NCBI GenBank assembly: GCA_949358305.1
Contig: OX442314.1
Coordinates: forward strand, 4,774,001-4,838,000
Origin: Strigamia acuminata
Taxonomy: Eukaryota
Direction of reading: 5' to 3'
Length of the DNA: 64,000 nucleotides
A program made the translations under genes and the position numbers. The notes beneath the pieces were generated by a model. It was not told where the DNA came from. It ran no database searches and worked only from the letters and a program-made list of their open reading frames with translations. Positions 67 to 60,639 of this stretch are shown one piece after another (within the stretch, counting starts at the first letter, position 1; each line of letters begins with the position of its first letter).

Positions 67-3000
67 CCTGAAATGCGCATTAACCTTACAATTGCAAATT
101 ATGAGACTGTGAGTTCGGCCACTGCACAAGTTTCCAGTCGTAAGTCAACAATAATTCCCGTTTTCTTTATTTTTAAAAGTTCCTTTTTCCCTTAGCAATT
201 TCGTTTCCATATGGGAATCCTGCTTATAAGATGGTGATTAAACTTAATTTTCCCAAGCAATGTAAAATTGTTCGAGTGAGTATTTAATTTCATCGACAAT
301 TCTCACAATTTATTTTGCATTTCTCACAGCCACAAAGTTGCACAACACATTTTTTAAACACTAAGCGTCCCTTTGTAGCTGTCAAAATTGTGAAATCCTC
401 AGTAATAAAATTTGATAATCATTCTTGAAACCATTCCATTCAATTTCAAGGTGTTAATAGATCCATCATCAGTCGTTTATAATTTAAACAGTATATTCAT
501 GCAAGAGATACAAATAAAACATGGCAAACATACAGTTGGAAATAGAGTGCAAGAAGTAAGGATTAAATTAATAATTATTCACACAGAAAAGAGAATTATT
601 TTCTAGCCATTAATAAAAAGTATTTCTTGGATCTATCAGCTTTATTTAAGCACAATTGCTAATTATTTACTAATATGTAATAAGGGCCATCCGTAATTTA
701 CATAATGTTGGGTTTTGGTTGACTACAGTTAACATAAACATGTAAACATCAAATTTGTGTTACAAGGTTTAACAAATTCCCTCTCTTCCTCCCTAGAAAA
801 TAAAATAATAAAAAAGAACGGCTTAAGATGCTATGTTATTTAAGGAAGGCCCCATAATAATACAGGAATTTGAAACATTTATTTTAGTATCACTACATCA
901 GCACTAAGAAAAATCCATGCGATAATAATTTACACGATTGTTTGCGCCCATGTCTCGTCAAACGAATGAAATGCAGGTAAGTTTTTTTGATTCGACTCAA
1001 TAACAGAATTCAATAAAAGAATATTTATTTCTGGGTATAAATCACACATCAAAACATTTAAAAAATATTTTTTATCTAACTGTTATTATTATTAATAAAA
1101 ATTAGAAGTTAACTTAAATAAAGGTTGTCACATTAGATATCCATTTTATGAAGCGAGAAATCTACCGAAATGCAATGACAAAGACACTTTGATTCAGGTC
1201 GGACAAATAGAAAACCTTATCATCTTAGATGGTATAGAATCACAGTGTAGATGTGGTAATTTATGTGATGAGACAAGTTTCAGCCAAACATTCGAAAGAA
1301 CACCTGATGATGGAGATAAAATAGACATTTATGTTGTCAATACTTTCGTTCGAACATTAGTCGAACACTTTTCTTATGACATCATCAATTTGCTATGCGA
1401 CATTGGAGGAAACATCGGCCTCTATTTCGGAATGTCTTGCTTGACACTGGTCGAAATATTCATTCACATATGCAAAATATGCGTCAGCAAACCAACAACA
1501 GCAAATTCCAAGTTGACAGATAAAATTGAAATGACACTTGAAAAGATGCAGAATCGCCGAAAACCAACTTTCGATAAAAAGTTGATCAAAATCACAACAT
1601 CACTATTCTTTGGTTTGATATCAGTCTACTACATTTACCATTTGATTGATTCTTATTTTCAATTTCCACTCTTGAAAACTGTTAAACTCATTAGAGATGA
1701 AAAAATTCATTTTCCACTCATTATTGCATGTGCAGATAGTGCAAACATATCACATGCTAAAAAGGAATTAGCCCAAAGACTCAACTCAACTGATTGTGAC
1801 GATTTACAACTGTTGGATTTACTCCATCCACTATCTGAATTCGCAAAGCAACCACTGCAATTGTGGAATGCCTCGTCTCTTCTTGATTTATACGACGAAG
1901 AACGGATAAAGCATCTCAAGGTAAAAAAAATCAGAATATTAAATCATCAATTCAAACGTGTATAAAATTAAGAAACTTGTAGAACGGGATAGCAGCAGAT
2001 ACAATTGAATTATATATTCCCAATTTATCATTAAAACCAACAGTGTATGGAATGTGTACTGCGTTTAATAGAAGTAAAAAAACAAGTCACTTTTAAATTT
2101 TAATTCTCACTAAAATATTTTTACCCAGCTGACCGGCCGTTTTCTAGAAAGCAAAACTTTGTAATGATTACCGATCTGCCCAGTGTTCACTGTAGTTTTA
2201 AACGAGAAGTGAGATAGAAGTTTATCCTTCGTACTGTCAATTGCAGCAGTTACTAATTTCACTTTCTGTATTCCAGCACTTCATTTTGCCAACAAATCAA
2301 TTTTTTCATCCGAAATATCGTTTAGATGTATCCAACAACTTAGGTGTTTATGTCAACTTCGCCCCTCAAACGGTGAATTCAAAAAATGATTAATCCACTA
2401 TACTCTGGCTCACCATAAGGTTGCCCTTCCTCCCATTGGGCGAGTCTCACTACTTCCAACTGCAGACTGTACTACCACCAGGAAAAGTAGTTTTTATTTT
2501 TGTGATTAATTGATTATTATAAAATAAAGATTAAAATGATAGAAATTTTATTTTATTTTATAGTAAAATGTTTTTTCCATTTATAAAACATGTTTGTTCA
2601 GTTTATTGGTTGCTTTATCTGAAAAGCACAATGTCTGTACATCGATTGCAATTCTGATGTTTTGTATCACTCGGGAGAAAGACCACCCTAATAGTAAGCC
2701 AAAGTATAGCGCATTCGAAAAGCCATTGCAACAGTTTAAATAGCGTAATTAGACTTCAAAAATGGCACCCAATTTAATCTGCATCAGTCACTATTGAGAA
2801 ATTGTAGCCATTTTGGAGAAATTATCAACAGTTTTGAAAAACTCAAATTTTTCTTTGGTTTGGGGCCCCAATTTGTTCAAGGGCTCACACTGTAGCTTAT
2901 GTGGTTGTGGCCAAATTGCCATTTAGTTGATTAATCTTTCCAGCTTGTTCGATTAAATACCCCGAGAAGTCCTTGCAGACCAAATGATGAAGTTTTAAAA

Positions 3001-3779
3001 TGTGAAGAAAACTGCTACGAAAAGATACTCGAGCAACAAACTTTCAATTGCAGGTAACTTGTAATTCATCCACTAATTACTCTGAATCCCATGTTGCAAT
3101 TTACAAATCATACATTGTTTGAGTATATTCCTAACAATCAAAAGGAGCAAATTAATTGGTAACAGCAGATGTATTCAGGTTTCCGTTTCTTGCAACAACT
3201 TTGAAAATGAATGATAATATTATTTATGTTTAAAACTTTCAAACATAGAAACTAAAATCATTGAAAAAAATGATTATAGGCAATTGTCATTGTTACCAAT
3301 AAATTTAATTTGCCAAATTTGATCTACCTTGCTAAGTTGCTATCCTAGCACACTCAAACAGTTCAAGTGTATGCCCAATTTTTAATAACTGGAAAAAATC
3401 ATGCGTCATGGCACACTATATTTCCAGTAAATGTTGTTGTATTACTAGACTTCCATCCATGGATAAGAGTAAATTTCCTTTTTGCCTATCTCAAGAGACG
3501 GCTAAAACAACTTACGAAACATATTTGAAAACTCTGTTGAAGACAAACCCCCAAAAAGACTGTTCCTGCAAAGCATCTTGTCAAGAAACCATCTACAATC
3601 CTTCAATTGTCAACAGCTTTGATGTCGAGGATACCTTTGTTTGGTATATGTTTGAAAATAACATCAGAGAAATAATTGAAGAACAGCAAGAGGTTACTAT
3701 TGTAAAGTTATTGTGTCAGATTGGATCTATTATTGGTATTCTCACTGGTTTCTCCTTATTTTCTCTTCTTCAATTTTGA
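67..3779 (+). CDS. DEG/ENaC (ASIC/pickpocket-like) channel gene encoding at least two subunit repeats in tandem; 5' part lies outside the window
   Basis: Clear exons: about 888-976 (YHYISTKKNPC...CLRPC...KCR), 1137-1920 (Cys-rich thumb, TM2 LLCDIGGNIGLYFGMSCLTLVE, linker, new TM1 and IHFPLIIAC), 1983-2073 (YGMCTAFN), about 2129-2208, 2277-2372, about 2420-2510, 2944-3053 (PC...CEENC...NCR), 3449-3779 (CSCKASC, TM2 LLCQIGSIIGILTGFSLFSLLQF*). Small upstream exons near 67-139, 196-275, 330-400 and 451-555 are less certain. Motifs match ENaC FPxxxxC, GxCxxFN and LxxIGGxxGLxxGxS. Confidence 0.85.
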
Positions 3780-4032
3780 TTGCCTTTAATTTTACGGGTT
3801 TAAAATAATGAAATGTTGCTTAACTTATAACTGGATGCATTCAATTTGTACTGTAAATGCACTAATACAATGTGACGTGTCCTTTACAATGCAGGTGTAA
3901 ATCAAACTAAATTAAACAAAACGGCTACAATAAATGTCTAAATTGATCAAAAACCCTAAAAAATGTGGTGATCTCAAAATATTCATTAACTTAGAAGATA
4001 AATTAATTATGTCTTCTAATTAATTTGACTGT

Positions 4033-4234
4033 GGCACACGCCAAGTCATATCGTGTGACCAAGGGGAGAAATCCTCTCTAGGCACATATCACCTCAGGTT
4101 GTCTGAGGTGAAAACGGTTATTAACCGTTATGGTGCAATATGGTGTAATAATCCCTTGTTGCACCAGTTTCAGCTAATTGCGCAGGTTATCTGCGCAATA
4201 TTGAAGCGTGCCGGGCTCGCGCCCTAGCTTCAAT
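4033..4234 (+). other. Cluster of seven consecutive stem-loops (candidate structured RNA or element leader)
   Basis: Inverted repeats at 4033-4060, 4062-4077 (GAAA loop), 4089-4111, 4113-4129, 4131-4166, 4177-4199 and 4200-4234; mismatches in three stems are G-T pairs on the + strand. Confidence 0.55.
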
Positions 4235-6530
4235 CGGGACTCTAATTCAAACATCACAACCCTCAACATCACTGCTATTTCAACCAGACAAGTATTGACG
4301 GAGGACCGTGATTTGAACTTAGTTTCACCTTGCTATCTTTGTGCACCAAAGCACAAAGCCAGCTATTTGCGTGGATCAACCACTGTTGATTCCCGCAACG
4401 TAAGAAGAAGTTCCCGCGATCGTCGTGAACCATCGCCGAGACGAGTGCGCGAACACCCGCCGAAGCCATCGTACGCTGACCGGACGCCTGTAACCGTGAA
4501 CCACCGCCGCCGAGCCGTCGTACGAGTTACGAAAGGACCCACGAGAACCATCGTCGTCAGGACCATCGTTCGTGAGTCGTTTAACGAAGGAAACCTCCTT
4601 CGTAACAGCATTCGTGTTGTAAAGCGCCATTTCTGACGCTTTTGGCTTGCAACTGTCGGTCTTTTTATTCTCTCTCTCATAAATTAACCCTAGATAATTT
4701 TAAGGCCGCGATATAAGTCTTTTTAAGTATTCAACTGCGGTTTCTACTTATTTTACTAGAATTTAAGTAGATAAAAACCCGGATCGCAGCAAAAATTATG
4801 GGGGAAATTTAAGTGATCACAACAAAACGCCTGCATTTAATTTACAGTCAAGTTTACTCCCTTTATTGCACTCTTGCAGATCCTCTTTTATTATCATCCT
4901 TCTTACTGTGTGGGATCTCCTGAAAATTACATAAACCAATCAGGGTGCTCACGTTGTTTCTCCCTACGCTTTTTTCGCATCCAAAAACTTTTTGGTTATT
5001 TCGATTATTTTTTTTTCTCAACAAAACCGACCACCCCCCCCCCCCCCCAAATTTTGATATCAACAAATTCAGTAATTTTCAATTTCAATTTTCAAATTTA
5101 CAATTTACAATACAAAATAATAATGAATTGAAGCAATGTTACGACAAACACCGGGCACCAGGTCGCCATGGCACTTAAAAATTCTTGTCTGGCATATAGA
5201 TTTTAAAAAATTCAAAATCAAATGGATGCTTTAGGCACCTGAAAACAAATAAATATAAAAAACTACATTTTTGGAAAAAGGCTTTTATTTTAGAACTTCA
5301 AAATATTGTCAACCCCTGGAGCTAAACATTGGAAGATCACCATCCTCTGACAATTAGGATCACAAGGGAAGGGGCAACAAGCAGCTGACCATGGTGCTTA
5401 AATGTGTTAGAAGGGTCCTGGTAATACCTCGCTTTAAGCGGCATGCCAGTACAGCACAAGTCCAACCAGACTGGAGGTAAATCGTGTTATATCGGCAGGT
5501 TGTTATAAATGAGTACAAAATTTGTTTCAACGTAAAATGAACCAAAAAGCATTTTTAGATGTTCAAAATATAAGAAATTGGTCTAAATTTCTATGAATTT
5601 ACAGAAATTTTAAAAATAACATTAAGATTATCTAGAAAACTCAAATTTCTGGCCCAAATTCCAACATAATTATTCATCCAGACGTTTTTTAATTATTTTT
5701 TTTTCTAAAAAAAAGCTTTTTCACTTATACTTAAGTCAAGGATTTGTAAAAAAAAAAATGTTTTAATAATGTACCACATTTTCCTAATTCTTAACACAAC
5801 AATAAAATAAAATTTACAAACGTGATTGTTCATTTTCAAAACCCCGATAACAAACAAAAGAAAACCCGCAAAAAAATGCCATGTTGGGAAAAATTGAGAT
5901 ATTATTTAGGGTACCCAAATTAAAACAAGCGTATTTACTTACGCCATGGCGAAAATTCAAAAAATGCACTTTTCGCCAACACTTCTGCGGTTGGTACGTC
6001 GTGGAAAAGATCTCCGACGAGTCGTATCGTGTTCTAAGTCGGTGCTTCATTCATCAATACATTCGTCGAAAAAACAAACGGCAAAAATAAACAACGCATT
6101 ATTTTCCAGGTAAACATGGTCTAGTCTGCTGGTTAAATTCGTCCTAGAGTCTACATCGATGCTGTGATTGGTCGACGGGTGCTCCATTGCATTTTGGGAG
6201 CTCCATACACAAAAATTTACAAAAAATTCAACTTTAGGCCAAAAAAATTCATTTTAGCCAAAATAATTAATCTTTTATCGAATAAAACAAAAAATGTTTA
6301 AAAAAAGCTGGTATAAATCGAGTTACCAACACTATAGAAGAGGTATGAATTTCTCATGTTTCTAGGAATTTAGCGATAAAAGATGACATCATTCCGTTTT
6401 TCCCGCGCTGATTCCCGATTGGTCGGTATACAGCCCAGCACGGTGAAAATTGCGCGCAAACTTTAACCAACAACTACCAGACAAGGCGGGTGTCCAGATC
6501 CGCTCATTTCACCCAAAGAAAACCAAACTA

Positions 6531-9500
6531 ATGGACACTTTAACTTATTTCGAGAACAGGAAGATCGGTTGCCTCGATTCCGGCCTATGGAGGCGCAAAT
6601 CGGCGAACAACGGTAAAAACAACACCACAAAACGCAAAATTCCCACGAAAACTCAACCCGATCTCCATTACAGGTTACGGCAAACTCAACGTCAACTTTT
6701 TACTCTCAAAATTGCGATGCAATTGGGAGGACGATCATCTAACGATAGGAATTCGCAGCGCACTCACCACCGACGACCAACTGGAGGACTACGAGTACCC
6801 GGTGCCCGCATTCGCCGCCAAATTTTGTCAAAGTACACACAAATTTCATTCAATTTCAAGTTTTCAACCGAAAATAATTCAATAATTATTTTATTTCACC
6901 TTCTAGTTGCCGGCAACGAACATTTTCTAGCAGTTTGTACCGAAGAAGGCACCGTGAACATCCTAAACACGAATTTCCACGGCGACTCCACTTACATTTC
7001 GAGTATAAATCGAAAAGAAATTCAAAAATTGATGATTTTAATCGATTTTTTCGGTTTATTCTTTAATCTAGGTGTGCAGGCGCATCAGAATGCAATTTTC
7101 GACGTTTGTTGGGTGCCGGGAGAGTCGAATATCTTGACCGTGAGCGGGGATTTGACCGCGGCCATTTGGGACGTCGAGCAGGAAAAGAGGATAGCGACGT
7201 TTTCTGGTCATAATGGGAGCATCAAATGGGCAGATTTTAGACCGATGGATAAAAGTGGGTGTTGGATTTAATTTTTGATTAGTTAAATGTGGAAATTTAA
7301 TTTTTTTTAAATGTTTTTTAAGGTGTTTTTGCGACGGCGGCGAGAGATGGGTCCGTTATTGTTTGGGACGTGCGGAGACAGGCGGCTGATAATGTGATTA
7401 AGAATTGTCACGCGATTTCTAAGGTTTGTTCGAGGAGGAATAAGTCGCCCGAGATGCCGGCGAGGGACGGGAAGCAGAGCGTCACGGCGGTTTTGTTTCA
7501 AGACGAGCATACGCTGGTGTCGGCGGGATCGTCCGACGGGTGCGTAGAGTTTGAATTTTGTCAAATTTATTTGAATTTTCTACAAATTCACTAAGAAAAA
7601 ATTAAATTTGTTTGGATTCCGTCGAAATTCACAAAAAAAAAATTAAATTTGTTTAATTTCCGTCAAAATTCACTAAAAAAAAATAAATTTGTTTGAATTC
7701 CGTCGAAATTCACTAAAAATAAATTAAATTTGTTTGAATTCCATAGAAATTTACTAAAGAAAATTAAATTTGTTTGAATTCTGTCGAAATTCACCAAATA
7801 AATTAAATTTGCTTGAATTCCGTCGAAATTCACTAAAAAAAAAAATTAAATTTGTTTGAATTCCGTCGAAATTCACTAAAAAAAAATTAAATTTGTTTGA
7901 ATTCCGTCGAAATTCACTAAAAAAAATTAAATTTGTTTGAATTCCGTCGAAATACACGAAGCAATTTGTCGAATTTCTTTGAATTTCGTCCAAAATCCCA
8001 ATTTTTATAATTTTATAATTAATTTTCCTTTTTTTTCTACAGTAAAATCAAAGTATGGGACATAAGAAAACACTACAGTAATCACACGCAGTTGCCTCTC
8101 GCCAAGCACACGATTTCCAAAAAGAATTCGAAAACAGGTAAATTTAAATATTTCAACACTGCGAATAATACAAAATTTAATTCAATTTAATTTTTACTGT
8201 TTAGTTGGATATTCGAGCTTGGTATTCGATTCGAGACGTCGCCATTTGTTTGCCAGCGGCTGCGACAACGTGATATACGAGTACAACTGTTGGACGTATT
8301 CGTCGGTGCCCGTGAGCACGTTCACGGGTCATCAGAACCGGACATTTTTTGTGAAAAGTGCCATTAGCCCCGACGATCAGTATTTATTGAGCGGCTCCAG
8401 CGATAATTTTGCGTACATTTGGGCGGTAAATTGTTTTTAAAAAGCTTTTTATATTTATTTAATTATTAAATAAATTTTTCTTTGAAAATTAGATCTCGCA
8501 GCCAGGAGAACCGATATTTAAGTTGGAGGGCCACGAAGCCGAAGTGACGGCTGTAGCGTGGTCCATGGACCCAGTTCCGAGGGTAAAATATTGAATATTT
8601 TAGTGGTGCCATTATTTATTCAAATATTGGATATTCTTGCGTAAATTTTATCGAAATTAACCGAAAAGTTGTCAAATTTGTTTAAATTTTGTCGAAATTG
8701 ACTAAAATTTGTTTAAATTTACGCGAAATTGACTAAAATTTGTTTGAATTTAGTCGAAATTGACTAAAATTTGTTTAAATTTAGGCGAAATTGACTAAAA
8801 TATGAGTAAATTTTTCGATATTCACCGGAAAATTGTCGATTTTGTCGAAACTTACCAAAAATTTGACTAATTTTGTCGAAATTTGAGCAAATTTTGTTGA
8901 ATTTACTAAAAATTTGACAAATATGAGTAAATTTTGTCGTAATTCAGCGGATAATTGTCGATTTTGTCGAAACTTACCAAAAATTTAACTAATTTTGTCG
9001 AAATTTATCACAAATTTACGCAAATACATGGAAATTTATCGTTTTCATTTTCCAGATTGCAACATGCGCCGACGACATGCGCATGAAACTCTGGAATTCG
9101 TGGCCCGACGGCGTCACCATATCAACCGAGCGCCCATCGATGGGCCGCGTCATGAAAACCCCAAAATCCGAATCAGTGACTCACATGCAGACCCCTTGCA
9201 GACCCCTCAAACCTCGCCGCCTCAACCTCGACTCCCCAGCCAACACAACAGCCAACACAACGCCCAACAAACGAGCCAAACGACGAATCCACCAGGAAAA
9301 CGAACACGCGAGCCCGAGGAAAAAGAAGTGTTCGCCGTCCAAAGCGATTCTGTCGCCGCGCAAAATGGCCGCGTCCAACGAAGAAAACGTGCTCAGCAAA
9401 TTAACTTTCGACGGCCGCAAATTGACATTCGACGACTGCCTAAGTCCGGCCAAGTGCGGAATGCGATGGGGCTCGCCCACGTACAACTTGCCCAATTCGA

Positions 9501-9820
9501 TCGAGAGCCCCATCCCCATCTCGCCCATCGTCAGGCCTAAAACGCCCAAATGCAATTGGTTGACGCAAATGGCGCAGGAAAAAGTGCAACTAACACCCAA
9601 ACCAAACACGAGCGCAAAGAAAAAGACGAATATCAGGAGGAAATTGAACCGTTCGTCGCCCAGAAATGGCAAAGTAAAATAAATTAATTTATTAATTGTT
9701 TATTATTTTTTTAAATTGATTTATTTTATTTTTTCTTAGTCACAAAGTTCTGCTGGTAATTCGCAATCCATTCTCCATTATTTCACTTGTCCGCCGTTGA
9801 CGTCGAATTCGACGAATTGA
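6531..9820 (+). CDS. DTL: Denticleless/Cdt2 WD40 substrate receptor of the CRL4 ubiquitin ligase
   Basis: 10 GT-AG exons: 6531-6612, 6674-6832, 6907-7002, 7072-7254, 7323-7539, 8043-8137, 8205-8425, 8493-8582, 9056-9673, 9740-9820. Motifs PVPAFAAKF, EHFLAVCTEEGTV, AHQNAIFDVCW, KIKVWDIRK, FFVKSAISPDDQYLLSGSSD; S/TP-rich tail with NWL motif; C-terminal PIP-like SQSILHYF. Confidence 0.93.
7560..7990. repeat. Intronic tandem array, about 40-bp unit (aaattaaatttgtttgaattccgtcgaaattcactaaaaa)
   Basis: About 9 visible copies in DTL intron 5. Confidence 0.9.
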
Positions 9821-11034: not shown

Positions 11035-14000
11035 ATGACCGCTGGTAAGACGAATAAAGGGCCCATGGCTGGCTACCAGGACAAAGATAAACCGGCTCAG
11101 ATTAGGAACAGTAACATCACCGCCGCAAAAGGTAACGCGCATGAAAATGAAGAAAATCGAGAATTGTAATGGAAAAATGAATTATTTCAGCCGTTGCGGA
11201 TGCTATTCGAACGAGTTTGGGACCCAGAGGAATGGACAAAATGGTACTCGCAAAAGTTCTTTGTTTAAATTGCTTAGTGATTGAATTTGTTTCAGATTCA
11301 AGCCGCGAATGGCGATGTGACCATTACCAATGATGGGGCGACAATTCTGAAGCAAATGCAAGTGATTCATCCCGCTGCTAAAATGGTATAAGTTGAAAGA
11401 AAAATATAAGGAGTCGAAGAATTGGATTTTTTGGTTTGAAAGAGGAAAAATCGAATTTTGTTGGTGCTAAAAGTGGAATAGATGGTTTTAAATATGAAAA
11501 ATAAAGGATTTTTTGATTAAATAATTAAGAAATTAGAGAAAAATGAATTTTTTGATGAGAAAAATTGAAAAAACTGAAAAATTTGATCAAAATAATCAAG
11601 AAATTTAGGAAAACTTTAAAATTTTGTTTAAGAAATCAAAAAAGATACCGAAATTGTTATTTATAAATCAGGAAAACTAAAATTTTGTCTACAAAATGGG
11701 GGGAAAAGTTGAATTTTCGATTAAAATCAAGAAAACAAAGTTTTGACTAAAAATTGAATTTTTAATTCAAATAGTCAAGGAGATTGTGAAAACCTGAAAA
11801 TTTTGTTTAAAAACTAAAATTTATGATTTTAAAAACGGGAAAAAAAAGAATTTTGATTAAAAAAATTAGGAAAACTTGAATTTCTCTAAAAAAAAATACT
11901 AAAAAATTGAATTTTTCGATTAAAGCAAAAAAAAACTGAAAGTTAGTTCACAAAATTGATTTCTTGATTTAAAAATCAAAAAACTGAATTTTTTTATTTA
12001 AAAATCCAAAGGAATTGAAATTCTTGATTTAAAATTCCAAAAAACTGAATTTTTTGATTTAAAAAACCAGAAAAATTGAATTTCTTGATTTAAAAATACA
12101 AAAGAACTGAATTTCTTGATTTAAAAATCCAAAAAACTGAAATTCTTCACTTTTTAACTGCAATTGACACCAATCTCTTTCTCCAATTCCAGTTAGTTGA
12201 ATTATCGAAAGCTCAGGACGTCGAGGCCGGCGACGGAACCACGACCGTAGTAGTCATCGCTGGAAGTCTGCTCGACTCCACCCAGAAATTACTCGCCAGA
12301 GGAATCCACCCGACGACCATTTCCGACGCATTCCAACGCGCTGCGACGAAATCTGCAGAAATCCTCTCCAATTTGGCGACCCCGGTCGACCTGGCTGACC
12401 GAGAAGCGCTTTTAAAAAGCGCCTCGACCGCCCTCAACTCAAAGGTGAAAGAAAAACGACGAAAAATCGTATTTTTTCGAATTTTTTTCATATTTTTCTT
12501 ATTTAATTCGACAGGTGGTTTCTCAACATTCGACTCAACTTGCGCCGATCGCCGTTGAAGCCGTTTTGAGAGTCATCGACCCATTAAAGGACACTAATGT
12601 CGATTTGAGGGACATCAAAGTGATTAGGAAATTGGGGTATGGCGAGAAAAAATGATGAAAAAGTGGATAGAATTGTTTGAATATATTTATTTATATTTTT
12701 GTTTGCAGTGGGACTGTGGATGACACGGAATTAATCGAAGGATTAGTGTTTACGCAGCGAACTGGGGGCTCGGGAGGCCCCACGCGCATGGAGAAGGCGA
12801 AAATAGGACTGATTCAGTTTTGTTTGTCTCCGCCGAAAACTGATGTAATTATTTGTTTTTAACGAAATTAATTCCATTTTGTTAAAAAAAAAATTGTTTT
12901 TGTGATTTTTCAAACGAAAAGCGAATTTTTTTCATGTTTTTGTTGATTTTTCAAACGAAAAGTAAATTTTTTTCACGTTTTTGTTGATTTTTCAAACGAA
13001 AAGTGAATTTTTTCACGTTTTTGTTGATTTCTCAAACGAAAAGTGAATTTTTTTTACGTTTTCGTTGATTTTTCCAACGAAAAACGAATTTTCTTCACGT
13101 TTTTGTTGATTTTTCAAACGAAAAGCGAATTTTCTTCACGTTTTTGTTAATTTTTCAAACGAAAAGCGAATTTTTTTCACGTTTTTGTTGATTTTTCGAA
13201 TACAAAGCGAATTTTTCTCACGTTTTTGTTGATTTTTCGAACGAAAAGTTGAATTTTTTTCACGTTTTTGTTGATTTTTCAAACAAAAAGTGAATTTTTT
13301 TCACGTTTTTGTTGATTTTTCGAACGAAAAGCGAATTTTTCTCACGTTTCAATACACAAATAATGAATTTCCTCGAATTTTTTTGACCGATAACTTCTAA
13401 TTCCATCCATTTCTAACCATTTTTCAGATGGAAAACAACGTGATAGTGTCGGATTACTCGCAAATGGATCGCGTTTTACGCGAAGAACGTGTTTACATTC
13501 TAAACCTCGTCAAACAGATCAAAAAAGCCGGCTGCAACGTTCTCCTCATCCAAAAATCGATTCTCAGGTACTTAAACTAAACTAAACAAACCAAAACAAA
13601 TAAAATTAAAACAAATTCAACTCTGTAGAGACGCAGTCAACGATTTGGCGCTTCACTTTCTGGCCAAAATGAAGATCATGATAATCAAAGACATCGAGCG
13701 AGAAGATATCGAATTCATCAGCAAAAGCTTGGGGTGTCGTCCTGTGGCTAGCATCGACCACTTCACGCCCGAGACGTTGGGCTCGGCCGACCTGATCGAG
13801 GAGATCGGCGGAAATGGCAGCAAGATGGTCAAGGTGAGTGAATCGTTTGAAATTTGAACGATTGTGATGAGAAGTGATCAGTTATGAAATATTCTTTTGA
13901 TTTCATTTTGTTTTCTCCACTTCATCTGATTTTGTTTGGTTTTTTTTCTGGCTTTTGGTTGAGGTTTGGGTTTTGGGTGATTTTGTTTGATTGTTTTTGT

Positions 14001-15184
14001 TTGGTTTTGTTTTAGGTTACTGGAGTGCAGAATGCGGGCAAGACTGTTACGATTCTTATTCGTGGATCGAATAAGTTGGTTTTGGAGGAGGCCGAGAGGT
14101 CGCTGCATGACGCTTTGTGTGTTATTCGTTGTTTGGTTAAGAAGAGGTTTGTTGAGCTTTTTTTTGTTTTGAAAATTTTGGGAGTTTTGTTGGAAATTTG
14201 AAAAATTGTTGGGGAGTTTTGTAGTTTTGCGAATTTTTACTGAAAATTTTTGTGAAATTTTACCATTTATTAATTCATTTTTCTGAAATTTTACCGTTTT
14301 CAATTGATTTTGGCGAAATTTTACCATTTTTCAATTGATTTCGGTGAAATTTTACCATTTTTCAGTTTTTTTCGGTGAAATTTCATCATTTTTCAATTGA
14401 TTTTGGTGAAATTTTACCATTTTTTAATTGATTTTGGTGAAATTTTACCATTTTTCAGTTGATTTCGGTGAAATTTTACCATTTTTTAATTGATTTTGGT
14501 GAAATTTTACCATTTTTCAATTGATTTCGGTGAAATTTTACCATTTTTCAATTGATTTTGGTGGAATTTTACTATTTTTCAATTGTTGAAATTTTACTAT
14601 TTTTTATTGAAATTTTGGACAATTTCACAATTTTTCGTTAAAATTTTGTCGCAATTTTACAATTTTTCGTTAAAATTTTGGACAATTTCACAAATTTTCG
14701 TTAAAATTTTGGACAATTTCACAGATTTTCGTTAATTTTGGACCATTTCACAATTTCTCGTTCAGATTTTCTCGAACTTCTCCTTGCAATCTAAACATTT
14801 GAATAAATCTTTTGCAGGGCTTTAATCGCCGGAGGTGGAGCGCCCGAAATCGAACTCTCCCTTCGCCTGACGGAATTCTCGCAGACGTTGACCGGAATGG
14901 AAGCCTACTGCTTCCGATCGTTCGCCGACGCCCTCGAAGTGATCCCTTCGACCCTGGCCGAAAACGCCGGCCTCAACCCCATCGCCACCGTCACCGAGCT
15001 GCGCAACCGCCACGCGCACGGCGAATTCACGGCCGGCATCAACGTGCGCAAGGGCGCCATCACCAACATCCTCGAGGAGAACGTGGTGCAGCCGCTGCTC
15101 GTCTCACTCAGCGCCGTCCAGCTCGCCACCGAGACCGTGCGCTGCATCTTGAAAATCGACGACATCGTCAACGCACTTCGCTGA
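11035..15184 (+). CDS. CCT4: T-complex protein 1 subunit delta (chaperonin CCT4)
   Basis: 10 exons: 11035-11131, 11191-11243, 11296-11385, 12193-12444, 12515-12636, 12709-12844, 13428-13567, 13629-13833, 14016-14146, 14818-15184. N-terminus [46 protein letters not shown] motif, [16 protein letters not shown]-terminus [12 protein letters not shown] are delta-subunit signatures. Confidence 0.97.
12895..13350. repeat. Intronic tandem array, about 40-bp unit (tttttgttgatttttcaaacgaaaagcgaatttttttcacg)
   Basis: About 11 copies in CCT4 intron 6. Confidence 0.9.
14250..14760. repeat. Intronic tandem arrays, about 30-bp units (gattttggtgaaattttaccattttttcaatt, then aaaattttggacaatttcacaatttttcgtt)
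   Basis: CCT4 intron 9. Confidence 0.88.
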
Positions 15185-16815: not shown

Positions 16816-19800
16816 ATGGCCGACGATCTCTGTACGCTAAGTATCTCAATATCTAGTCAAAATATATTTCAAAATTTAATTCATTTCCGCTTGAAATCGA
16901 TAACTCAAAAAGCAACCTCGTTTTTAATCCAACACACTTATTTACCATAAAATTCATTACTAAAATTTAATTCTTTTTATACATTTATTAAATTTCCGTT
17001 TTTACCTCCAATCAATCCATACCTAACCCAAACCGTATTTCATCTTCTCAACCTCGAACTTCGCGACACCTCGCGACAAAACCAATAACGAATCTAACCA
17101 AAGACCAAACCTCGTGATGTACCGCTCTCCGTCTAGTTAAAAATCCAAAATGGCACCAATCGAGCAAATATGTTATCAAATTCCCATCTAATTTCCCCAA
17201 TTTTTCTCCTTTTTAACCCAAATTTCAGCTAACGAAGTAATAGTTCCGCTTCTCGGTATGTCCGCCGAAGCCCAGGTAACCGGTAACGTGGCCAGCAATC
17301 GCTTAACGGGTCGGAAAAAGCGCTACAACGTCAACAGGAACTTGCAGGTGATGCGATAAATGGAGAAAAACGTGAAAAATTGAATGAAATTTACCGAAAT
17401 TTAAATATTTGTAGGACGTGGAGCCGAACGGAGACTTGGATGCCGAGGTTACGAGTAATAACGTGCGAAACGAGACGAATTCGGGCCCGGAATGGGCGGC
17501 GGAAGAGGAGGAGGAGCTGAAATACGGAGCGAAACATGTCATCAAGCTGTTCGTTCCGGTCACGTTGTGCATGTTGGTGGTCGTGGCCACGATCAGTTCG
17601 GTCACGTTTTATACTCAGAGGGGCAGTTACTTGTAATTAACGTGTTGGAGTGTCTGGGTGAGCACCGAAAATCCGAAAAATGGAGAAAATAAAATCGAAA
17701 ACATCGAAAAATAACAGAAATAATACAAAATAATGAATTTACGTCGTTTATTCGACCGTTCGAAGGTTAAAAATCGCGTTATTTCTGATTTTTAATGGAA
17801 ATTAATCGGTTTTTCGCCCAAAATCGAAAAAAAAATAATTTTAAAATTCTAAAAATTAAATTTAAAAAATTCTAAAATAATAGAAATAACAAAAATAACG
17901 AATAAATGCAAATTCACGTTGATCTTTTACAGTTTGAACGTTAAAAATCGCGTTATTTCTGCATTTAAAATGGAAATTCATCGATTTTTCGCCCGAAATC
18001 GGACAAAATCGACGGATATTTGTACAAAATTCGATTACCCGGATAGACGGTGTTGAAACCCTGCGATCTGGTTATTTTAGAGTTTGAGAATTTCGAGATT
18101 TTAATTTTTATCGTTTTATTATTTGTAGAGTTTACACACCGTTCCATGAAAACAGTCCAGATCCGGGCACCAAAGCGTGGCAGTCGATCGCCAATGCTTT
18201 TATATTGATGGGGGTCATCGTTGTAATGACCATCTTTCTTATATTGTTGTATAAATATAAGTGTTACAAGGTTTTTGTGCTTTTTTTGGTCATTTTTTTG
18301 TGGTTTTTGTTGATTTTTTTGTTTTTTTTTAGGTGATTCATGGCTGGCTGATATTGTCGTCGCTTATGCTGTTGTTTCTGTTTGCGTATATTTACTTAGG
18401 GTGAGGAATTTCAGTGGAATTTGATCGATTTTGAATTTATTTTATTTTGTTTTCATTTTGTATCAATTTTTTTCACTTTTTTAATTTAATTTTTAATTTT
18501 TTTCTGTTTTTTTCCAATTTTTTCTGGTTTTTCCAGTTAATTTTCAATTAATTCTCCACTTTTTTTTATCTTTATTTTGATTATTTTGATTATTTTCAAT
18601 TTTATTTTCTTTTTCTCACTTTTTCTGTTTTTACCAATTGATTTTCAATTAATTTTCCACTTTTTTCCATTTTTTCTGGTTTTTTTAATTGATTTTCAAT
18701 TAATTTTCCACTTTTTCATCTTTATTTTGATTATTTTCAATTTTATTTATTTATTTTTTCACTTTTTTTCAGTTTTCTCTTAATATTTTTCTATTTCTTT
18801 TATTTTTTTTTTATTTTTATTTAATTTTTGTTTTCAATTTTTGCTCATTTTTAATTTTTTTTCGGTTTGTTGCAGGGAAGTGCTTCGTGCCTACAACGTT
18901 CCAATGGATTACATCACCCTGGTGTTCATAATGTGGAATTTTGGAGTGGTGGGAATGATTTGCATCCATTGGAAAGGCCCGCTCCTCCTCCAACAAGCCT
19001 ATTTAATCGTCGTTGCCGCCTTGATGGCTTTAGTATTTATCAAATATTTACCCGATTGGACCACGTGGGTCGTCCTAGGTGTCATTTCCATTTGGGGTAA
19101 ATTTTTAACAACAACAATTTAACATTATAAATTTTAATTCAAAAAATTGAATTTTTTTAATTTTATTTCAAAAAATTTTCAATTTTTTAAATTTTATTTC
19201 AAAAAATAAAAAATTTTCGGATTTAATTAAAAAAAATTAATTTTTTCGATTTTAATTCAAAAAATTGATTTTGTTCGATTTTAATTCAAAAAATTCAATT
19301 CTTTTCGATTTTAATTCAAAAAATTGATTTTGTTCGATTTTAATTCAAAAAATTGAATTTTTTCAATTTTATTTCAAAAAATTCAATTTATTTTTTTTAA
19401 TTTTTTCGATTTTATTTCAAAAAATTGAATTTTTTTTCAATTCTTTGCAGATTTAATTGCTGTGTTGTGTCCAAAAGGTCCTTTGAGGATACTGGTGGAA
19501 ACAGCTCAGGAACGCAACGAACCAATTTTCCCAGCTTTAATTTACAGTTGTACGTTGGAAATATATACATACCTACACAATGTCAAAAAAAAGATTTTAT
19601 TTAAAAAATTAATTTTTGCTTTTTTGTTGTTTCTAGCCACTGTGGTGTACAGTATGATGGCGGACAGAGAAACAGGAGTCGAAGAACGATCCAATACAGC
19701 AAATCATACCGGTCAAGGTATTTGGTCTAAAACAAACATATTTTCCGTATTCGCATTTGGGATTTAAAATTGCAATTTTACACTTCACATGCAATTTCAC

Positions 19801-26248: not shown

Positions 26249-59394
<33,146 letters not shown>

Positions 59395-59677
59395 TGTGTA
59401 AGCGGGCGAATTTACACCGCCCATTAGGAGGAGCCCCATCGCCCAATAACGAAAGGCCGACAGCCAATGATTGACGTACATGTGACTGCAGCGAATGGCT
59501 GGGGCGAGTCGGGGGCGCATGCGCGCGGGGTTTCCGGTTGGAGTCGAGGGTTGTGTGGACTCGTTCGTGAGGTTTGCTCTTGAGATTTTGAGGGGATTTG
59601 GGACGGGGGAGCGGCGGGAGAGGAGGCGTGGGTGGCGGCGTGGGTGGTTGGGGGTTCCGGCGGAGGGGTTGCGGACA

Positions 59678-59711
<34 letters not shown>

Positions 59712-60639
59712 GTTTTTTTTTGGGGTTTTTTTTTGGGGGTTGGGAATGGTTTTTGTTTTGGTCGATGTTTTGGTCATTTGTTGGTTGGGGGATTGTTGGT
59801 CAGCGGGATGTTTGGGTTGCTATGGCGATTGGATGCTGCGGATCAAATTTCCGACACTTAGCGCCGACTAGTGAGGGTTTTTTTAAGATATTTAAATTTG
59901 GAAATAAGTGTTTTTGTTGTAATTTTTTTTAAATTAAATTTTAGACTGGACTGGAAAAATGTTGGAAGAAATTTTAATTCGTCTGAAAAAAGTGTTGAAA
60001 ACTATTATAGACCGGTCTAAAAAAAATCTACAATATTTTTTTTTTCTTTCGCTTTTGTTTTCTAGAAATTTTTTTTTTCTTTTTGGATTTCTTTAATTTA
60101 AAGGTCTGAAATTTTAGACTTCTGAGGATTTTTTTTTCGTAATTTTTATTTTATGCAAAAAAAAATAGAAAATTAAATTTTTTTTTTTTTTTTAAAAGAA
60201 AACCTAAAATTTTTTTTTTTTTAGACCCTGTCTAAATAACTTAGCAAAAATTTTAGACTGGTCTGAAAAGAATTGCAAATTTTTTTCATTTTTCACATTT
60301 CCTCAATTTTATATTTTACCAAAAAAATAAATAAATAAATAAAAATAAAATTTTCGATCTAAAAATTTTAGACCTGTCTAAAAAAAAATAACAACACCCA
60401 AACCAAAGAAAAATTTCTAATTTCCTTTTCCACAAAAAAAATATCAAAATACATTTTCCAAAAATCAAAACTTTGGGTCTAAAATTTTTAGACCTGTCTA
60501 AAAAAAAACAACAACACCCAAACCAAAAAAAAATTCCAAATTTCCTTTCCACAAAAAAAAAAACATCAAAAAAAATTTCCAAAAACCAAAATTTTGGGTC
60601 TAAAAATTCTAGACCGCCTAAAAAAACCCAAAAAATCCC

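What the first reader, a model, noticed from the sequence alone, without database searches (positions are those of the whole stretch)
888..3779. Natural concatemeric DEG/ENaC channel: two or more subunits fused in one reading frame
Seen: exon 1137-1920 runs without a stop from the TM2/selectivity filter of one subunit (LLCDIGGNIGLYFGMSCLTLVE) through a basic linker of roughly 35-40 aa into TM1 and the FPxxxxC motif of a second subunit. That subunit then has its own GxCxxFN, Cys-rich thumb and TM2. Both repeats have a phase-2 intron in the same C-R codon (976/1137 and 3053/3449), which points to tandem gene duplication. Established: DEG/ENaC channels are trimers of separate two-TM subunits with cytoplasmic N and C termini, so a TM2-linker-TM1 fusion is topologically compatible and resembles engineered concatemers. 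Inference: this gene hard-wires heteromeric stoichiometry; a third repeat upstream of the window would give a single-chain pseudo-trimer. MTLEKM in the linker (about 1531) could be the ancestral start of repeat B.
Basis: partly seen in the sequence, partly recalled or inferred. Interest (0 to 1): 0.88.

Follow-up and report, generated by a model that had tools for sequence, protein, structure and literature searches.

The report
Naturally fused DEG/ENaC channel subunits
This gene, likely from a centipede, joins two normally separate sodium-channel (DEG/ENaC) subunits in one reading frame; many related genes share the join and some shrimp and midge genes join three, so the gene itself likely fixes which subunits sit side by side in the channel.

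Summary
Confirmed and larger than reported. Exon 1137-1920 runs open from TM2 of one DEG/ENaC unit (A) through a ~31-aa linker into TM1 of a second (B). A corrected ten-exon model gives 612 aa, with intron phases 1,0,0,2 repeated in A and B. The join is not private to this locus: five Strigamia maritima proteins keep it at 52-65% identity, about 40 of 150 best hits carry a TM2-to-TM1 join, and paralog contigs in two probable DNA runs bridge it in frame. B units form their own clade and have a different pore lining (3' Gly and 18' acid lost). True three-unit chains occur elsewhere (decapods, a chironomid, a second Strigamia group), apparently of separate origin. AlphaFold gives pTM 0.73 for a dimer and 0.66 for a triple. 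Not shown: any transcript of this gene or its clade, the 5' end, the third subunit, channel activity. Ten literature searches found no description of natural DEG/ENaC concatemers.

The parts
67..139 (+). Unit A exon (region of the GxC..FN strand, which here lacks G and C); phase 0 to 1; tentative
   Evidence: AG/GT ends and frame fit; no homologue covers it, so only phase match with 1983-2073 supports it
196..275 (+). Unit A exon, 80 nt, phase 1 to 0
   Evidence: its 3' half aligns to S. maritima T1IVW1; same length as B exon 2129-2208
451..555 (+). Unit A exon, 105 nt, phase 0 to 0
   Evidence: gapless alignment to T1IVW1 and T1IVZ0 (scores 265/247 against 197/218 for my first guess 330-401)
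888..976 (+). Unit A exon, start of Cys-rich thumb, ends in phase-2 C-R codon
1137..1920 (+). Junction exon: thumb, last strands and TM2 of A, linker, TM1, FPxxxxC and finger of B, one open frame
1390..1488 (+). TM2 of unit A: D0', G3', G-M-S belt (1429), E18' (1453) all present
   Evidence: 14 of 19 listed paralog differences are synonymous
1489..1581 (+). Cytoplasmic linker, about 31 aa, basic, with a predicted amphipathic helix (K-I invariant in 6 of 6)
   Evidence: helix in the model of a relative
1582..1731 (+). TM1, first strand and FPLIIAC motif of unit B
1983..2073 (+). Unit B exon with GMCTAFN (2049), phase 0 to 1
2129..2208 (+). Unit B exon, 80 nt, phase 1 to 0
2277..2372 (+). Unit B exon, phase 0 to 0
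2944..3053 (+). Unit B exon, start of thumb, ends in phase-2 C-R codon
3449..3779 (+). Last exon: thumb and TM2 of B (Q0', S3', G-F-S at 3747, Q18'), stop 7 residues after the belt
   Evidence: S. maritima T1IZ33 ends 9 residues after the belt with the same S3' and Q18'
3929..3934 (+). Candidate poly(A) signal AATAAA (ATTAAA also at 3911)
   Evidence: motif only

Best explanation
The gene encodes two unlike DEG/ENaC units, A then B, in one open reading frame; it likely belongs to an old, expanded centipede family of two-unit (four-TM) chains that are predicted to fill two neighbouring positions of the trimeric cation channel and would take the third from another chain. Shown: the in-exon join, the repeated intron pattern, the conservation of the join in relatives, and the A/B difference in pore residues. 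Inferred: tandem duplication followed by loss of A's stop fused A's short C-tail to B's retained N-terminal helix; the fused unit was then copied many times. Because B can only sit next to A, it was free to diverge (3' Gly to Ser/Asn, loss of the 18' acid, shortened TM2b in this subclade), giving an asymmetric pore. The third position is most simply filled by a free single-unit DEG/ENaC. The likely role is sensory cation conductance, by kinship to the centipede antennal channels BRTNaC1 and PDPNaC1; the stimulus is unknown.
For: Join conserved in 5 S. maritima proteins at 52-65% identity, 32 of 111 columns invariant; 44 of 150 best hits have a TM2-to-TM1 join by my own HMMs, 3 of them doubtful. 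Two paralog contigs bridge the join at the same spacing or +6 nt; 0 of 40 listed differences make a stop; TM2-A differences 14 of 19 synonymous, p 2e-6. B units form one clade (10 rows, SH-aLRT 96) in two quick trees. Gly3' in 26 of 26 A and 1 of 9 B; acid at 18' in 19 of 26 A and 1 of 8 B (rows are related, not independent). AlphaFold model of the complete dimer T1JD34: pTM 0.73, pLDDT 77, four TM helices, best match BRTNaC1 TM 0.70. Engineered ASIC concatemers work, and one E18'Q in three keeps Na>K>Cs while two collapse it (PMC5449180 section 8).
Against: No transcript of this gene or of any centipede A-B member was found (searches gave only gene models). All S. maritima rows are predicted proteins; 2 of the 7 closest (T1IZ33, T1IVZ0) lack part of the join. 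One paralog contig has a 5-nt frameshift at 1706. Differences in the linker (3 of 8) and in TM1-B (3 of 13) are not enriched for synonymous change. The AU test does not reject grouping the window's A and B together (p 0.125), and the A clade is weakly supported (81). The Atlas model of the same dimer has pTM 0.53. T1JET5 shows that a gene model can start inside a linker, which weakens the count of two units. B's TM2b is very short here, and A may lack the GxC cysteine. No third subunit is identified.
Confidence: 0.6

Rival explanations
1. The gene has a third unit upstream of the window and is a self-contained single-chain pseudo-trimer.
For: Three-unit chains exist in arthropods, including S. 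maritima T1IU28/T1IZL2. The 5' end is not in the window and no genome is held. Gene models can start inside linkers (T1JET5).
Against: 0 of 5 clade members that include TM1-A with its N-tail have a TM2 in front. The S. maritima triples are a separate clade with 56-62% identical repeats.
Confidence: 0.15
2. A-B chains assemble only with each other: three chains form two tethered trimers (ABA plus BAB), or A units form the pore and B hangs outside as an accessory unit.
For: Two does not divide into three, and no partner is identified. B's shortened TM2b and loss of D0' and E18' could mean it does not line the pore.
Against: B keeps the G-x-S belt and a full ectodomain; most B units have a full TM2b (18-26 residues); pTM 0.73 favours a fixed A-B packing. 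A BAB pore would carry two 18' losses, which collapsed selectivity in ASIC1a concatemers.
Confidence: 0.15
3. The chain is made fused but cut in the basic linker, or B is also made alone from an internal start, so the units act as ordinary subunits and the fusion only co-expresses them.
For: Linker is K/R-rich and has two in-frame ATGs (1531, 1546). T1JET5 looks like a free B unit.
Against: The Mets are not conserved (1 of 5, 0 of 5); linker length is held to a narrow range (GxS to FP motif 103-130 aa in 20 rows); the linker is cytoplasmic, out of reach of furin (own knowledge).
Confidence: 0.05
4. This copy is a silent or decaying member of the expanded family, or the join is an accident (lost stop, misassembly).
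For: Many paralogs, at least one frameshifted; a high-copy repeat sits just 3'; no RNA seen; neither run shows the window's letter at 1483.
Against: 612 codons open over 10 exons with canonical splice sites; join conserved across species and in paralog contigs, which excludes a one-off misassembly or lost stop.
Confidence: 0.05

Closest known systems
Centipede BRTNaC1 (PDB 8YMR/8YMW) and PDPNaC1 (9JF7)
   Same: Best sequence matches in the PDB for both units and best fold match (TM 0.70); compact ~420-aa DEG/ENaC unit.
   Different: Single-unit chains; PDPNaC1 is a homotrimer (abstract). Here two diverged units share one chain.
Strigamia maritima uncharacterised UniProt models (T1JF29, T1IVW1, T1IZ33, T1JD34, T1ITL7 and others)
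   Same: Same A-linker-B architecture; 46-57% identity for the nearest.
   Different: Unnamed predictions; the genome paper's main text has no ENaC/degenerin/pickpocket mention.
Engineered ASIC concatemers (PMC5449180, PMC10329638)
   Same: C-terminus to N-terminus cytoplasmic fusion that fixes subunit order.
   Different: Artificial, keep full tails plus a 19-aa Gly/Ser/Ala linker; here the natural join is about 31 aa in all and the units are 24% identical.
Three-unit ASC proteins of decapods (KAK7028032, KAK7013173, XP_069977668 cluster) and Polypedilum (KAG5672929)
   Same: TM2-to-TM1 joins between ASC repeats in one frame.
   Different: Three units, separate clades; one decapod group has a shrunken middle unit. 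All annotated as hypothetical or uncharacterised.
Internally repeated channels of other families: Nav/Cav (four repeats), TPC, K2P (recalled, no call)
   Same: Oligomer partly or wholly encoded in one chain, allowing asymmetric pore residues.
   Different: Unrelated fold; tetrameric, so a tandem dimer divides evenly, which it does not in a trimer.

Membership tests
DEG/ENaC (Pfam ASC PF00858) | Sequence match to the family profile above the curated cut-off | tested here: met
   45.3 and 31.1 bits against cut-off 23.6
DEG/ENaC (Pfam ASC PF00858) | Unit of TM1, Cys-rich ectodomain, TM2 with G-x-S belt | tested here: met
   B complete; A from mid-ectodomain to TM2; fold match of a relative to BRTNaC1/ASIC1
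DEG/ENaC (Pfam ASC PF00858) | One two-TM unit per polypeptide | tested here: not met
   At least two units in one frame; this is the variant feature
DEG/ENaC (Pfam ASC PF00858) | N-terminal HG motif before TM1 | tested here: not met
   No HG in the linker before TM1-B; PDPNaC1 also lacks it; A's N-tail is outside the window
DEG/ENaC (Pfam ASC PF00858) | Trimeric assembly | not testable with these tools
   Only pTM of single-chain models of relatives; no coordinates seen
DEG/ENaC (Pfam ASC PF00858) | Voltage-independent, amiloride-sensitive cation current | not testable with these tools
   needs expression
Strigamia A-B tandem clade (defined here) | B unit falls in the terminal-repeat clade and has non-Gly at 3' | tested here: met
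   SH-aLRT 96; Ser3'
Strigamia A-B tandem clade (defined here) | Exactly two units | tested here: inconclusive
   5' end outside the window; inferred from 5 relatives
Single-chain three-unit DEG/ENaC | Three TM1-ectodomain-TM2 units in one frame | tested here: inconclusive
   Not seen in the window; met by 5 of the 150 best hits in full form, which lie in other clades

The most novel reading that the evidence does not exclude
Arthropods have repeatedly (at least four times: two Strigamia groups, decapods, a chironomid) turned the trimeric DEG/ENaC channel into two- and three-unit single chains, as Nav and Cav did for tetramers. The three-unit chains are complete one-gene pseudo-trimeric channels with position-specialised subunits, and this centipede family is a fixed A-B pair that takes an exchangeable third subunit, giving a combinatorial sensory receptor system.
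Probability: 0.5. Interest if true: 0.9.

Novelty: new variant of a known kind. Interest (0 to 1): 0.82.

Why it matters
DEG/ENaCs are described as complexes of three separate two-TM subunits (PMC9822975 introduction). Natural two- and three-unit chains would change that definition and supply heteromeric channels whose subunit order is written in the gene, so pore asymmetry, gating and assembly can be tested with one cDNA. They also suggest that multi-ASC proteins in databases, easy to dismiss as fused gene models, are partly real. A two-unit chain in a three-fold channel poses a clear, testable puzzle: what fills the third place.

Tried and rejected
No whole genome was held, so the 5' end could not be read. 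No RNA holder listed among sequencing runs; this says nothing on expression. The two runs are of unrecorded kind, one study, may be the source sample, and none of the 15 of 35 joints shown matched an intron, so I treat them as DNA. Summed contig depth over the linker is roughly 10-35 times that of the WD40 neighbour but is not a copy number. Search for relatives of 458-2000 aa found none. Metagenome scan: 165 pattern matches, 0 confirmed. My first exon 330-401 was rejected for 451-555. The open stretch 2394-2486 in an intron was rejected as an exon because T1IZ33 runs straight across. No further ASC copy in the window by tblastn. The careful tree did not finish; both trees are quick ones; eight multi-domain rows (three cluster duplicates, five odd models) and short domains were left out. 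No complex prediction was sent: an A-B chain plus a third unit exceeds the size cap, and cut halves would pass by likeness to solved trimers. Earlier scan findings: none. Atlas searches gave only single-unit ASC clusters.

Full report
Observation. The stretch 1099-1965 is one open frame of 288 aa and matches Pfam ASC in two stretches. With AG/GT ends at 1137 and 1920 it runs from the thumb and TM2 of one unit (A) through about 31 basic residues into TM1 and the FPLIIAC motif of a second (B). The final model has ten exons (67-139, 196-275, 451-555, 888-976, 1137-1920, 1983-2073, 2129-2208, 2277-2372, 2944-3053, 3449-3779) and gives 612 aa and a stop. My first guess for the third exon, 330-401, was replaced because 451-555 aligns without gaps to two relatives. 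A and B are 24% identical (score 116 against shuffle maximum 62). An open linker alone would arise by chance about 8% of the time, so I looked for independent support.

Organism and family. The best solved relatives of both units are the centipede channels BRTNaC1 and PDPNaC1. The seven closest proteins are Strigamia maritima gene models at 46-59% identity. The window is therefore likely from a geophilomorph centipede; this is inference.

The join is conserved. A search of 1.84 billion representatives gave 177 hits at E up to 0.001 and listed 150. With my own profiles for the TM1 and TM2 regions, 44 of 150 have a TM2 followed by a TM1; three of these are doubtful. Five of the seven closest keep the whole join at 52-65% identity, with 32 of 111 columns invariant, among them K-I in the linker; the other two models lack part of it. 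In two probable DNA runs of one study, 161 and 134 contigs lay on 1300-1760; two long paralog contigs bridge TM2-A and the start of B with the same spacing or 6 nt more, and one contig has a 5-nt frameshift. Of 40 differences shown (of 148), none makes a stop (expected about 2, p 0.16); 14 of 19 in TM2-A are synonymous (p 2e-6), but only 3 of 8 in the linker and 3 of 13 in TM1-B. A one-off misassembly or lost stop is excluded. Expression is not shown: all centipede relatives are predictions.

Two units or three. Complete clade members T1JD34, T1ITL7 and T1IPM9 (791-907 aa) have two units. Five models that include TM1-A begin with Met 41-48 residues before it and none has a TM2 in front (four confirmed as S. 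maritima, one not looked up). T1JET5 is a warning: it looks like a single subunit but groups with B units and starts inside the linker. I put two units at about 0.8. The Met at 1531 is shared by 1 of 5 relatives, so it is not the ancestral start; the linker looks like A's short tail joined to B's retained N-terminal helix (inference).

History. In two quick trees the B units, including the window's, form one clade (SH-aLRT 96); the A units group weakly (80-81). This suggests one old fusion and later copying as a unit, but the AU test did not reject a tree with the window's A and B together (p 0.125). Separate groups hold three-unit chains: S. maritima T1IU28 and T1IZL2 (repeats 56-62% identical), Polypedilum KAG5672929 (57-60%), and decapods (Halocaridina KAK7028032 and KAK7013173; a cluster with Penaeus XP_069977668), whose repeats sort by position. 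For 24 Logan/ENA proteins of the decapod-like groups the frame fills 68-97% of its contig, as transcript contigs would; their RNA status is not on record. One group has a middle unit cut to about 190 aa.

How it likely works. TM2 ends and TM1 begins on the cytoplasmic side, so the join fits the topology (own knowledge). AlphaFold on the complete dimer T1JD34 gave pTM 0.73, four TM helices and a linker helix, matching BRTNaC1 at TM 0.70; a three-unit decapod-cluster chain gave pTM 0.66 with six long helices. Unpacked repeats should cap pTM near 0.5 and 0.4 (own knowledge), so these values suggest fixed packing. I could not see coordinates, the result may echo solved trimers, and the Atlas model scores 0.53. 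Pore residues differ by position: Gly3' in 26 of 26 A and 1 of 9 B, an acid at 18' in 19 of 26 A and 1 of 8 B (2 of 28 rows had no motif match; rows are related). The window's B has Q0', S3', Q18' and stops 7 residues after the belt, as T1IZ33 does after 9. In ASIC1a concatemers one E18'Q of three kept Na>K>Cs and two collapsed it (PMC5449180, section 8). The simplest reading is an A-B pair plus a third, free subunit, giving an asymmetric cation pore, probably sensory. The third subunit, the stimulus and activity itself are untested; tethered trimers of A-B alone are the main rival.

Literature. Ten searches listed no paper describing natural DEG/ENaC concatemers. Seen as passages: PMC12714832 (plus section 10), PMC9974506, PMC8438182, PMC5203786, PMC7510291, PMC9822975, PMC7067487, PMC10329638, PMC5449180 (plus section 8). 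Term searches with no hit: PMC10148893 (concatemer, tandem, fused, fusion) and PMC4244043 (ENaC, degenerin, pickpocket). No supplements and no subscription papers were seen, and the multi-repeat proteins are in public databases, so prior notice is possible.

Verdict. Real, conserved, and part of a wider pattern: a new architecture of a known channel family. Interest 0.82.

Noticed in passing
P0025, P0030, P0048, P0065, P0151-P0154 (not in window): Full three-unit DEG/ENaC chains of 1244-1307 aa in decapods and unnamed Logan contigs; repeats 23-32% identical and sorting by position, so an old single-chain trimer candidate.
   Followed up: partly
P0105, P0072, P0040, P0036, P0032, P0058 (not in window): Three-unit chains of 930-1045 aa whose middle unit has lost most of its ectodomain but keeps TM1, thumb and TM2; one clusters with Penaeus vannamei XP_069977668.
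   Followed up: partly
P0027; P0008-P0010 (not in window): Younger internal triplications in Polypedilum vanderplanki (1460 aa) and in a second S. maritima group.
   Followed up: partly
window 3907-5678 and about 2540-2590: High-depth repeats, likely mobile-element remnants, just 3' of the gene and inside the intron 2373-2943; ORF 4205-4636 has no Pfam match.
   Followed up: no
window 67-139: Unit A seems to lack the GxC of the GxCxxFN motif that B keeps at 2049, which would remove a conserved disulfide (recalled); exon choice is tentative.
   Followed up: partly
window 6447-9682 (+): WD40 gene, DTL/Cdt2-like by recall; behaves as low-copy in both runs.
   Followed up: no
window 12094-15184 (+) and 18784-19767 (+): TCP-1 chaperonin and presenilin exons.
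   Followed up: no
window 26249-26680, 37384-37785, 58714-59799 (-): Pieces of one long-intron paired-like homeobox gene with OAR motif, Vsx-like by recall, spread over more than 30 kb.
   Followed up: no
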